Shown here in pieces: positions 1,763 to 59,805 of a DNA stretch of 64,000 bases. Each line of letters begins with the position of its first letter. The stretch's first letter is position 1. The notes under the pieces are model-generated. The model had not been told where the DNA came from. It did not search any database and saw nothing but the letters and a program-made list of their open reading frames with translations. Source of the stretch: Octopus vulgaris (taxonomy: Eukaryota); NCBI GenBank assembly GCA_951406725.2, contig OX597823.1, positions 111,166,001 through 111,230,000 on the forward strand. The letters are read 5' to 3'. Position numbers and translations under genes: made by a program.

Positions 1763-3152
1763 ATGATGGTGGTGTGAACTACAACAGTGATGATGATACT
1801 CATATAAAATATATATGTACACTTACACTCAGACACACACATAAATATATACATGTACACTCATACATACACACACACACACACTGTCCCACTTATATAA
1901 AAATGTTATGGCCATTTTCCTCCATGGTTGTATGGGTCAGATGCTTCAGAGACTGTACTTTGCCAGTGGATGTACTTCATGTTACAAACCCAATTTATTT
2001 CGTACAACCTAAGTGATACAGTGAACATATTCTAACAACTAGTGTACACTTGTTTATATGTATATGCAATAAGATAGATGGACAGATAGCTAGATAGATA
2101 AGTAGGTAGGTAGATAGGTATGTATATAGATAGGTATAAAGAAAATACAGATGGATATTTTCATAAACAAGATAGTGTATATGGTTTAATTGATAAGTAG
2201 ATAGGTAAGAAGATAGGAAGAGATATATTGATGTGAAGAGAGATATATTGATGTGAAGACCATTAGATAAGGAGGAGGGCAAATATGTAAAAATACATGA
2301 AAGTCAAATGGTGGCAGCAGAAATGGTTGGAAAATGCCAAGGAATATAGAGTTAATGGTAAGAGAGTATAATGTTTTTGGTAAAGATATTAGTATTTGAA
2401 AGAAAACATAAGAGGGCAAGTATAGAGATTTTATGATGAGGAAGGAAGGAGGAAGGAGGAGGAGGAGGAGGAGCAGCAGGAGCAGCAGAAGCATGGAAGA
2501 GAGAGGAGGAGAAAGGAAAGAAAAGAAATAGAAGAAAATGACTGAAAAAGATGTCTGAGAAAAAGGAGGCCAATAATGTAAGAGAAGAAAAGGAGGATGA
2601 AGGAAAATGTTAAAAAGGGGTAAAGAAGAAGGAGAAAGTGAAAGAAAACAGGAAAGAGATACATGAGGATGGAAAAAGAACAGAGATGAGGAAGAGGAAG
2701 GAATCAAAGGGGAAGACAAAAAGGAGTGGGGCAGAGGTGTGGGTGGGCGGGGGGGGGAGTTCATGAATGTGGAAGAACTGGAAACATTTTAGTGATTGAG
2801 ATGATGATGATGGTGATGATGATGATGAGGATGCTGGTCATATTAATGATGATGACAGTGGTGGTGGTCAGGAGGAGGAAGGGTAGGGGAGTAAGAGAAG
2901 GGCAATAATCATGATGTTCACCAAAAAATAAAGTGTAGCCCATAAGAGAAAAGTTATAAAAAGAAAAAGACAAGGGAAAATAAGGTTTCCAATGTATATA
3001 CACATACACACACACAGAGGAACGTCCATACGTATATAAAGATCTATATACTTATATACACACACATATCAGTTAGGTTACACAGATATACACGTGTGTG
3101 TAAGTATCAATACTTGTTTCTTAATATGGATTTATGTGTGTTTATATATGTC

Positions 3153-59126: not shown

Positions 59127-59161
<35 letters not shown>

Positions 59162-59164
<3 letters not shown>

Positions 59165-59805
59165 AAAATGGCACAAGAGTGCAAAACATCCACGCAGTAA
59201 GGTGATACAAAAAGGGACAGACGATACAAAGAAAACAAAGACAGGTCATTCGGAGTTTTCTTTCCTCAGTCGAGTTCCAGATTATCTTTGCAATTTCGGC
59301 TGGTTATACTCGAGATTGCTCCAATCTGGCCAGCCTCAAGGAAAAACTAATCTAAGAGCATTAAATTCTTTGGACGAAAGCAGTGAATGTATATGAAAAC
59401 AAGGACACAAAAAAAACGGAGAAATGGTACACAAATATGAATAACAGGACATTAACAACGAGCGTCTTTCGACTAAGAACAAATTAAATTAAACTGGTAT
59501 GTGTGGAGGTAAAGCCTTATGGCAGCGACATAAGATTTGACAGGCACAGGGAGGAATATAGATGTTGCATGGATGGTAGTCGAACCAAGTAAGAAAGGTC
59601 AGGCTTGGCCAAACACCGGTCATGTTGGGGAGAGAAGAAGGGGATAGAAGAATTAAGGAGGGGTGAGATAAAAAAGGGACAGAGTGAAGTGAAGTGAAAG
59701 GAGAGGGAAAGTGAGCATGAAGAGAAGGTCAGGAAATGTTAGTGAGGGGGAATGAAAGAACAAAGAGTGGAATGAATGAAGTTAGTGTGAAAGGGCTGCA
59801 GCAGA
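59162..59805 (-). mobile_element. Probable retroelement 3' end (pyrimidine-rich UTR, structured module, T-rich tail into (TA)n)
   Basis: Same compositional layout as the HHR-bearing elements at 8000-8305 and 9160-9478; strand inferred from that layout. Confidence 0.5.
59255..59350 (-). ncRNA. Unassigned double-pseudoknot structured RNA candidate
   Basis: Five complementary pairs in the order A-B-C-D-E-B'-D'-C'-E'-A': UUUCCU/AGGAAA, GGCUGG/CCAGCC, CCAGAUU/AAUCUGG, GCAAU/AUUGC, UCGAGU/ACUCGA. Confidence 0.55.

What the first reader, a model, noticed from the sequence alone, without database searches (positions are those of the whole stretch)
59255..59350. Five-helix double pseudoknot where sibling elements carry a hammerhead: candidate new ribozyme or structured RNA class
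Seen: within about 90 nt (minus strand UUUUUCCUUGA-GGCUGG-CCAGAUU-GGA-GCAAU-C-UCGAGU-AUAA-CCAGCC-GAA-AUUGC-AAAGAU-AAUCUGG-A-ACUCGA-CUGAGGAAA) there are five perfect 5-7 bp complementarities. A, C and D form a hairpin whose 20-nt terminal loop (E, B') can pair with both strands of the A/C internal loop. Established: twister ribozymes have a related two-pseudoknot fold, but with a different helix order and a conserved UAA cleavage loop that is absent here; HDV-like, pistol and hammerhead topologies do not fit. CCGAAA and CUGAGGA words are present but not in a workable hammerhead arrangement. Inference: it lies between a pyrimidine-rich UTR and a T-rich tail ending in (TA)n, where other elements here place an HHR, so it may be a functional substitute (self-cleaving, nuclease-blocking or RT-binding RNA). 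The topology is strand-symmetric, so the strand is inferred only from context.
Basis: partly seen in the sequence, partly recalled or inferred. Interest (0 to 1): 0.85.

Follow-up and report, generated by a model that had tools for sequence, protein, structure and literature searches.

The report
Split-core permuted hammerhead in animal retroelements
This RNA motif carries all the catalytic letters and three helices of a hammerhead ribozyme in a scrambled order we could not find described, sits in over 10,000 places in this animal genome and in the tails of published Naiad retrotransposons, and likely cuts itself, which would supply the ribozyme Naiads were thought to lack.

Summary
The helices are real, but this is not a new ribozyme class. 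On the minus strand, 59335-59263 holds every conserved hammerhead core nucleotide (CUGAGGA, GAAA, UC) and stems I, II and III in non-circular order, plus a helix bracing stems I and II. The chain opens between A9 and G10.1, inside the block that Eckert 2023 assumed could not be split. A core pattern matches 10,634 times in the genome against 35 for the control. The loop between brace helix and stem III fits a kink-turn in 16 of 24 groups. The host is a non-coding ~780-nt Penelope-type repeat in (TA)n, with partial tandems and one 4.4-unit array. Read by eye, 8 of 48 published Naiad 3' ends carry the same permutation and 6 carry type-CSG; Naiads were reported to lack canonical hammerheads. Cleavage, predicted between 59314 and 59313, is untested: RNA reads gave no test and tandem junctions show no pile-up there. 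Verdict: new variant of a known kind, high interest.

The parts
59330..59335 (-). Stem IIa (GGCUGG); first G is G10.1; the 5' flank enters here instead of from A9
   Evidence: G-C at 10.1-11.1 in 29 of 29 aligned copies, 5 of 6 pairs with double changes
59322..59329 (-). Brace helix C, 5' strand (CCAGAUU plus 3n G); the stem I/II interaction helix; NC helix of the predicted kink-turn
   Evidence: 7 of 7 pairs with double changes, 82% cells paired; weaker in the run-length test
59320..59321 (-). Predicted kink-turn non-bulged strand, 2n G and 1n A
   Evidence: 1n A 18 of 18, 2n G 15 of 18 groups
59315..59319 (-). Stem IIIb (GCAA) plus U16.1 at 59315
   Evidence: A15.1-U16.1 invariant, outer pairs covary
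59313..59314 (-). C17 (59314) and predicted scissile bond between 59314 and 59313; triplet AUC
   Evidence: inferred by analogy with hammerheads; position 17 is C, A or U, never G, in 24 of 24 groups (part of the loci came from patterns that required H)
59308..59313 (-). Stem Ib (UCGAGU)
   Evidence: 90.8% cells paired, 5 of 6 pairs with double changes
59304..59307 (-). 4-nt linker joining the distal ends of stems I and II (NUAA in most groups)
   Evidence: Eckert's SGC type has about 3 nt here
59298..59303 (-). Stem IIb (CCAGCC), last C is C11.1
59294..59297 (-). Core G12 A13 A14 A15.1
   Evidence: sequence; invariant in alignment A1 and majority base in BLAST-collected families A and B
59290..59293 (-). 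Stem IIIa (UUGC); C helix of the predicted kink-turn
59284..59289 (-). Predicted kink-turn bulged strand: L1-L3 AAA, 1b G, 2b A, 3b U
   Evidence: 1b G and 2b A 18 of 18, L2 purine 18 of 18, L1 and L3 free
59277..59283 (-). Brace helix C, 3' strand (AAUCUGG)
59270..59275 (-). Stem Ia (ACUCGA)
59263..59269 (-). Core C3 U4 G5 A6 N7 G8 A9 (CUGAGGA); the 3' flank leaves after A9 without a stem IIa
   Evidence: N7 takes all four bases while the rest stays; downstream rival stem II unsupported
59163..59798 (-). 5'-truncated copy of a non-coding ~780-790-nt Penelope-type repeat (subfamily A): pyrimidine tract, the motif, and about 150 nt from the predicted cut to a fixed 3' end
   Evidence: no credible ORF among translated loci
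59129..59162 (-). (TA)n tract at the 3' end, the typical insertion context
   Evidence: same context in most loci

Best explanation
The motif holds all conserved hammerhead core nucleotides and covarying stems I, II and III in a non-circular order, with the chain open between A9 and G10.1, and it likely self-cleaves between 59314 and 59313, with a predicted kink-turn closing the fold, in a non-coding repeat likely mobilised by Naiad Penelope-like elements. Shown: order IIa - brace - (IIIb, UC, Ib) - linker - (IIb, GAAA, IIIa) - brace' - (Ia, CUGAnGA); covariation of four helices; more than 10,000 core-intact matches; partial tandems, inverted copies, fixed 3' end, (TA)n context. Inferred: the brace/stem III arm folds first as a local hairpin, bends at the kink-turn (3n=G, so predicted to fold in Mg2+), and its loop (Ib-linker-IIb) docks on the open base (Ia and IIa) of the same molecule. 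That builds the usual core (C3-G8, G12 general base, G8 general acid; established hammerhead chemistry, recalled) with A9 and G10.1 stacked but not linked. Inferred role: cutting head-to-tail transcripts to unit length, possibly followed by ligation to a ~720-790-nt circle that a Naiad RT/GIY-YIG copies from a fixed internal start, giving more-than-unit inserts.
For: Covariation on an unfitted MAFFT alignment of 29 copies: 84.3% cells paired vs 62.6% shuffled (0 of 500 reach it), score 0.598 vs 0.224, slid registers 20-43%. Without a pairing filter, 106 distinct genome copies matching a sequence-only pattern form 11-16 of 16 pairs; 79 metagenome/viral matches to the same pattern form 3-10. Family E keeps the topology with different sequence in every helix. 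N7 is free, the rest of CUGAnGA is kept. IIb pairs upstream (own 4.42 vs cross-group 2.41), not after A9 (1.62 vs 1.88). Kink-turn signature in 16 of 24 groups, though no collecting pattern asked for it; consensus from PMC5061560, 3b/3n rule from the abstract of PMC4382518. PLE minimal hammerheads keep an extra base between 9 and 10.1 (PMC4209133), so this joint tolerates interruption. SGC and CSG permutations with a brace helix cleave at the predicted site in vitro (PMC10085705). The same split form is in 8 of 48 Naiad 3' ends read by eye, type-CSG in 6; an older family in this genome matches the Naiad_Ovul motif nearly letter for letter by eye. One array has four full units 98.5-99.9% identical plus a 5'-truncated fifth.
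Against: No cleavage data. Upstream partial tandem copies do not start at the predicted cut: 12 of 24 independent loci extend 5' past it, 12 start after it, none within 19 nt; this fits a circle or an uncleaved multimer but gives no footprint of cleavage. In an anole PLE, hammerhead cleavage needed the protein and was not needed for insertion in vitro, and no RNA ends were seen at its site (PMC11167929). Pseudoknot-free folding pairs much of CUGAnGA in most of the 8 copies folded, in the window copy with the upstream U/C tract, so an off-state may dominate. The AUC triplet is rare in natural hammerheads and was least efficient co-transcriptionally (abstract of PMC1636495). The brace helix is the weakest by run length (4.29 vs 3.58 cross-group, 3.33 shuffled). 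The kink-turn is absent in E-type groups and L265 and not evident in the non-octopus Naiads. The copies in A1 were picked after filters on stem pairing, which inflates. No RT frame within about 2.3 kb upstream in 20 of 20 Naiad-like copies (motif search only), so the Naiad link for this repeat rests on shared architecture and target, not on contiguity.
Confidence: 0.78

Rival explanations
1. Same hammerhead core, but assembled in trans: the Ib-linker-IIb loop of one unit docks on the open Ia/IIa base of another unit (a dimer, or neighbouring units of a tandem transcript). Cleavage would then occur only in multimers and spare the monomer circle.
For: Metazoan PLE hammerheads are proposed to work as dimers (PMC4209133). 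The cis fold needs a closed ring of helices II-core-III-brace with short linkers; Eckert flagged the same distance problem for SGC. E-type groups lack the kink-turn and have AGUA/GAA in that loop. Tandem and inverted pairs are common.
Against: A conserved kink-turn exactly at the turn of the ring is what a cis fold needs. SGC/CSG monomers cleave co-transcriptionally. All parts lie within 73 nt.
Confidence: 0.3
2. A hammerhead-derived structure kept as a protein-binding or RT-recruitment element (kink-turn plus pseudoknot) that no longer cleaves, or cleaves only with the element's protein.
For: No cleavage footprint at tandem junctions. The anole PLE hammerhead is protein-assisted and dispensable for insertion in vitro. 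Nested folds bury the core. Kink-turns are protein-binding sites.
Against: The invariant positions are the catalytic ones, while N7 and helix sequences vary; position 17 avoids G. This holds from octopus to coral and crustacean Naiads (by eye).
Confidence: 0.14
3. A new ribozyme or structured RNA class unrelated to the hammerhead.
For: No Rfam match; five helices in one copy; A9 is not linked to stem II, unlike the six types of Eckert 2023.
Against: Every hammerhead core base sits next to the right stem strand; Rfam models cannot match permuted order; the fifth helix does not covary; nematode Naiads carry the recognisable CSG form of the same fold.
Confidence: 0.04
4. Standard type-SGC hammerhead in which stem IIa follows A9, locally or from the next tandem unit about 700 nt downstream.
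For: Block order S, G, C matches SGC; D has a 4-bp and E a wobble-rich match to IIb after A9 (by eye). In a circle or multimer the next unit's IIa does lie 3' of A9.
Against: Local downstream pairing is no better than across groups. Single copies and Naiad 3' ends hold the full set only with the upstream IIa.
Confidence: 0.05

Closest known systems
Type-SGC and type-CSG non-circularly permuted hammerheads (Eckert et al. 2023, PMC10085705)
   Same: Same cyclic block order S-G-C, short linker from stem Ib to stem IIb, a helix joining the other ends of stems I and II, two pseudoknots in the core.
   Different: Here the ends lie inside block C (between A9 and G10.1), which that paper assumed uninterruptible, and both brace-to-stem-III links are closed by a predicted kink-turn. 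Theirs came from metatranscriptomes and metagenomes (583 SGC, 2 CSG, one bacterial GCS), none from an animal genome.
Minimal type-I hammerheads of Penelope-like elements (Cervera and de la Pena 2014, PMC4209133)
   Same: Near the 3' end of a PLE-type repeat; G10.1-C11.1 pair; tolerance at the 9/10.1 joint. Examples at window +8174, +30241, -29951.
   Different: Those are circular type I with a 1-2 bp palindromic stem III needing a dimer. This one has a stable 5-bp stem III, a brace helix and permuted order.
Naiad Penelope-like elements (Craig et al. 2021, PMC8557442)
   Same: (TA)n targets, 5' truncation, partial tandems, inverted copies; by eye the same split-core motif in 8 Naiad consensus 3' ends, including the kink-turn in the two octopus ones.
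   Different: This repeat is non-coding and ~780 nt, with no EN/RT frame found attached. The paper reported no canonical HHR in Naiads, only 'HHR_core' and 'HHR_half_core' flags.
Non-LTR retrozymes (Li et al. bioRxiv 10.64898/2026.07.22.740005; Cervera and de la Pena 2020, search listing only)
   Same: Non-coding, ribozyme-bearing, head-to-tail repeats proposed to depend on PLEs.
   Different: Defined by a type-I hammerhead in each unit; their descriptors would miss this motif. Circular RNA is not shown here.
Standard kink-turn (Huang and Lilley 2016, PMC5061560)
   Same: 3-nt bulge followed by G.A and A.G pairs, purine at L2, flanked by a canonical helix.
   Different: Sequence match only; no hammerhead with a natural kink-turn was found in one search.

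Membership tests
Hammerhead ribozyme (class) | Core C3 U4 G5 A6 N7 G8 A9, G12 A13 A14 A15.1, U16.1, H17 | tested here: met
   Window sequence; invariant in A1; majority in BLAST-collected A and B
Hammerhead ribozyme (class) | Stems I, II, III adjoining the core in the right register | tested here: met
Hammerhead ribozyme (class) | [quoted passage not shown] | tested here: met
   4-nt covalent linker plus brace helix, 7 of 7 pairs with double changes; weaker by run length
Hammerhead ribozyme (class) | Site-specific self-cleavage after H17 | not testable with these tools
   RNA lay gave 0, 4 and 3 reads; no junction pile-up
Hammerhead types I, II, III (CGS, GSC, SCG) | Circular block order, no pseudoknot in the core | tested here: not met
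   Order is S, G, C; no Rfam hit
Type-SGC / CSG / GCS (Eckert 2023) | Non-circular block order with short Ib-IIb linker and brace helix | tested here: met
Type-SGC / CSG / GCS (Eckert 2023) | Block C uninterrupted: stem IIa directly follows CUGAnGA | tested here: not met
   IIa lies 66 nt upstream; downstream pairing at chance level. Not filed under any of the six types.
Standard kink-turn | 3-nt bulge then G.A, A.G pairs between two helices | tested here: met
   16 of 24 groups; window copy exact
Standard kink-turn | Kinked fold in Mg2+ or L7Ae-family binding | not testable with these tools
   3n=G predicts ion-induced folding (abstract)
Naiad PLE (autonomous) | ORF with N-terminal GIY-YIG and C-terminal RT | tested here: not met
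   No credible ORF in the repeat; no RT motif upstream of 20 of 20 Naiad-like copies; nearby GIY-YIG fragments are separate C-terminal-EN elements
Naiad PLE (autonomous) | (TA)n targets, 5' truncation, partial tandems, inverted copies | tested here: met
   features from PMC8557442. Also true of other PLE clades, so not diagnostic.
Non-LTR retrozyme | Non-coding head-to-tail units each with a ribozyme | tested here: met
   L218: five motif copies at ~723-nt spacing
Non-LTR retrozyme | Type-I hammerhead in each unit | tested here: not met
   Permuted form instead; definition
Non-LTR retrozyme | Accumulates as circular RNA | tested here: inconclusive
   too few reads
Twister, HDV-like, pistol and other Rfam ribozymes | Match to the Rfam covariance model | tested here: not met

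The most novel reading that the evidence does not exclude
A seventh natural hammerhead topology, with the catalytic core split at A9/G10.1 and closed in cis by a kink-turn, is an active ribozyme. It is the missing ribozyme of many Naiad retrotransposons from cnidarians to cephalopods and crustaceans, with type-CSG in nematode Naiads as its circular permutant. It drives a family of ~750-nt circular retrozymes with more than 10,000 copies in this genome, all invisible to current descriptors.
Probability: 0.5. Interest if true: 0.92.

Novelty: new variant of a known kind. Interest (0 to 1): 0.84.

Why it matters
It would break the stated rule that hammerheads come in six block orders because the CUGAnGA block cannot be split. 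It would move non-circular RNA permutations from a few hundred environmental contigs into animal genomes at high copy number, with enough subfamily variation to map the fold. It makes an open question directly testable: Craig et al. could not fit Naiad 'half cores' to any descriptor and concluded Naiads do without canonical hammerheads. The CSG and split forms in one retrotransposon clade offer a natural series for how RNA permutations arise, plausibly through tandem repeats (inferred). A ribozyme whose flanks both leave at the core, with a kink-turn as hinge, is also a new handle for RNA engineering.

Tried and rejected
Split between A6 and G8 with a closing stem IV (my first model): dropped because the base before IIa is G in most copies and CUGAnGA stays intact with free N7. 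Closing helix A / stem IV as a conserved part: no group-specific pairing; a loose pyrimidine/purine pairing is not excluded. Stem II formed downstream of A9: chance level. Rfam: nothing. 5' ends of tandem copies at the cut site: no pile-up. Expression: no RNA holder listed; laying three raw RNA runs and one contig set on a young D unit gave 0, 4 and 3 reads from about 6% of each RNA run, which is no test. GIY-YIG fragments beside two D copies as the autonomous partner: separated by microsatellite, different 3' UTR; that young 775-aa PLE shows no CUGAnGA in the first 500 nt after its stop in 4 copies viewed. RT upstream of Naiad-like copies: none in 20 of 20 and none evident in 9 other loci. 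Prokaryotic or viral homologues: 74 + 5 pattern matches, none above 10 of 16 pairs; one fixed spacing only. Short subfamily A/B/D words in the Naiad supplement: 0 hits (wrapped lines weaken this). Strict hammerhead descriptors missed the window's minimal hammerheads because of the extra base after A9. One search was translated in the wrong frame and not used. Earlier scan findings: none returned. No 3D RNA modelling was available.

Full report
Observation. The five helices are present at the stated coordinates on the minus strand. Five non-overlapping helices of 5 bp or more arose in 29 of 5000 shuffles. Nested folding is not unusual (z -1.17), and Rfam has no match at gathering score and no small ribozyme among 18 weak hits. 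The window lies in a 2.8-Gb genome, probably an octopus given the near-identity of one repeat family to Naiad_Ovul.

What the motif is. Read 5' to 3' it is: IIa (59335-30), brace strand (59329-22), GA, IIIb with U16.1 (59319-15), C17 (59314), Ib (59313-08), a 4-nt linker, IIb (59303-298), GAAA (59297-94), IIIa, six purine-rich bases, brace' (59283-77), one A, Ia (59275-70), CUGAGGA (59269-63). Every core base of a hammerhead adjoins the right stem strand except that A9 is not followed by stem II: IIa lies 66 nt upstream. Eckert et al. (PMC10085705; I read the Introduction, Methods, all Results and the first part of the Discussion, and term-searched the supplement) define blocks S, G and C, assume block C cannot be interrupted, and so count six permutations. 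[quoted passage not shown] This motif is that fold reopened inside block C.

Covariation. BLAST gave subfamily A (29 aligned). A divergent copy beside one hit led to B, and a pattern scan (448 matches vs 270 control) to D and E. A sequence-only core pattern matches 10,634 times against 35 for the reversed control. On a MAFFT alignment of 29 copies, 84.3% of cells pair vs 62.6% shuffled (0 of 500 reach it), 21 of 24 pairs show double changes (19 of 500 shuffles reach that), and slid registers give 20-43%. I picked those 29 from lists filtered on stem pairing (182 distinct copies), and relatedness is not controlled, so these numbers lean favourable. Without a pairing filter, 106 distinct genome copies form 11-16 of 16 pairs, while 79 metagenome and viral matches to the same pattern form 3-10. 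A stem II downstream of A9 is at chance level. Family E changes every helix yet keeps the order and shares only layout and short words with A, B and D.

Kink-turn. The loop between brace and stem III reads as a 3-nt bulge followed by G.A and A.G, the standard kink-turn (PMC5061560, passages). It is complete in 16 of 24 groups. The eight without it are four E-type groups, L265 and three single copies off by one base. In the 18 groups with the common spacing (six dropped), 1b G, 2b A and 1n A are 18 of 18, 2n G 15 of 18, L2 a purine 18 of 18, while L1 and L3 take all four bases. The window's 3b/3n pair is U/G, which the rule of McPhee et al. says folds in metal ions (abstract). Inference: the kink lets the brace run back from the far end of stem III to the far ends of stems I and II, the distance problem Eckert noted. 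I could not model this in 3D.

Host element. The motif sits about 150 nt from a fixed 3' end in a non-coding unit of about 780 nt with a pyrimidine tract. Copies are 5'-truncated, often inverted or in partial tandem, and flanked by (TA)n. D includes a young subfamily (97-99% identity over the motif). One locus holds four full units 98.5-99.9% identical plus a truncated fifth. Of 30 junction loci, 27 showed an upstream copy, 24 independent: 12 extend 5' past the predicted cut, 12 start after it, none within 19 nt. That fits a circular or uncleaved multimeric template and gives no sign of cleavage. RNA reads gave no test.

Naiad link. Craig et al. (PMC8557442; passages; supplement searches; part 24 of 59) report that Naiads target (TA)n, lack canonical hammerheads, and that eight carry a 'half core', among them Naiad_Ovul. 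The Naiad_Ovul 3' UTR shows by eye the same order with a 6-bp stem II, 5-bp brace, kink-turn, 5-bp stem III, GUA triplet and 6-bp stem I. I then read the last ~450 nt of 48 Naiad records. Eight show the complete split form (Obim, Ovul, Amil, Aacu, Anas, 2_Movir, Plae, EuTe; three of these are near-identical Acropora-type records and two are octopus, so about five independent cases), and six nematode records show type-CSG (1-3_Nbra, Hcon, Hpol, Asuum). The other 34, including Naiad_Esco, showed no complete hammerhead to me in the viewed stretch. This is by eye and not computed. An older family in this genome (658 candidates) matches the Naiad_Ovul motif closely, but 20 of 20 copies had no RT motif within about 2.3 kb upstream. 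So Naiad mobilisation of the window's repeat is inferred.

Mechanism. Shown: sequence, helices, covariation, copy number, insertion pattern. Inferred: cis docking of the hairpin loop on its own open base via the kink-turn; cleavage between 59314 and 59313; processing of multimers and perhaps circles, as proposed for PLEs (PMC4209133, passages). Against: nested folds bury the core in most of 8 copies; AUC is rare in nature and poor co-transcriptionally (abstract); an anole PLE hammerhead needed protein and was dispensable for insertion in vitro (passages). Trans assembly is the main rival for the geometry and shares the same core; the rival confidences therefore overlap with the best explanation.

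Novelty. Searches for an earlier report. Only Eckert 2023 describes non-circular hammerheads; a 2026 paper cites it for 'additional helices or alternative permutations' (passages); a 2026 preprint on animal retrozymes uses type-I descriptors (first fifth and passages). Passages of PMC10162972, PMC6155905 and PMC6765202 added nothing. The library lacks most subscription papers. I recall that Weinberg 2015 described hammerhead variants with an extra stem in the core; I did not read it, and it could lessen the novelty of an interruption near the core, though not of the permutation. The preprint's supplements were not looked at.

Verdict. Real feature; a hammerhead-fold ribozyme candidate in a permutation outside the six named types; new variant of a known kind; interest 0.84, pending one simple cleavage assay.

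Noticed in passing
window +8174, +30241, -29951, possibly -9292: Canonical minimal type-I PLE-like hammerheads with an extra A after A9. 29951 and 30241 form an inverted pair of a high-copy family (1714 candidates) whose stem II and part of loop II resemble subfamily A's IIa/IIb and Ib-linker; shared origin, recombination or chance is unresolved.
   Followed up: partly
PMC8557442 supplement, six nematode Naiad 3' ends: By eye, complete type-CSG non-circular hammerheads; Eckert 2023 knew only two CSG sequences, from metagenomes.
   Followed up: partly
PMC8557442 supplement, Naiad-1_Movir and several bivalve records: 3' ends hold words that resemble twister ribozymes (recalled consensus, untested); oyster and hemichordate records share another conserved GC-rich block. 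Naiads may swap ribozyme classes.
   Followed up: no
Family E, e.g. L137:1537-1640 (-): In place of the kink-turn the loop has AGUA opposite GAA, like a bulged-G (sarcin-ricin type) motif (recalled); this may favour trans assembly.
   Followed up: partly
L218 (G000:C1:79.499-79.502 Mb): 4.4 head-to-tail units, 98.5-99.9% identical, 5'-truncated first unit, in (TA)n; looks like one rolling-circle-type insertion.
   Followed up: yes
L386, L393, L394, L396 and others: A young PLE with C-terminal GIY-YIG and a CxxC linker (Neptune-like, by recalled features) has many near-identical copies with a 775-aa open frame; another candidate source of RT in trans.
   Followed up: partly
window 59345-59361 (-): A ~17-nt block just upstream of the motif is nearly identical in subfamilies A and B and similar in D, as is a short block after the core; possible protein-binding sites.
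   Followed up: no
L178 oriented 1858-3141 (+): Homeobox-containing frame about 200 nt from a young D copy.
   Followed up: no
L168:1524-1604, run X15: Summed contig depth peaks over the ribozyme far above both flanks, including the 3' flank, consistent with the motif being the most conserved part across subfamilies; contig depth is a rough measure.
   Followed up: no
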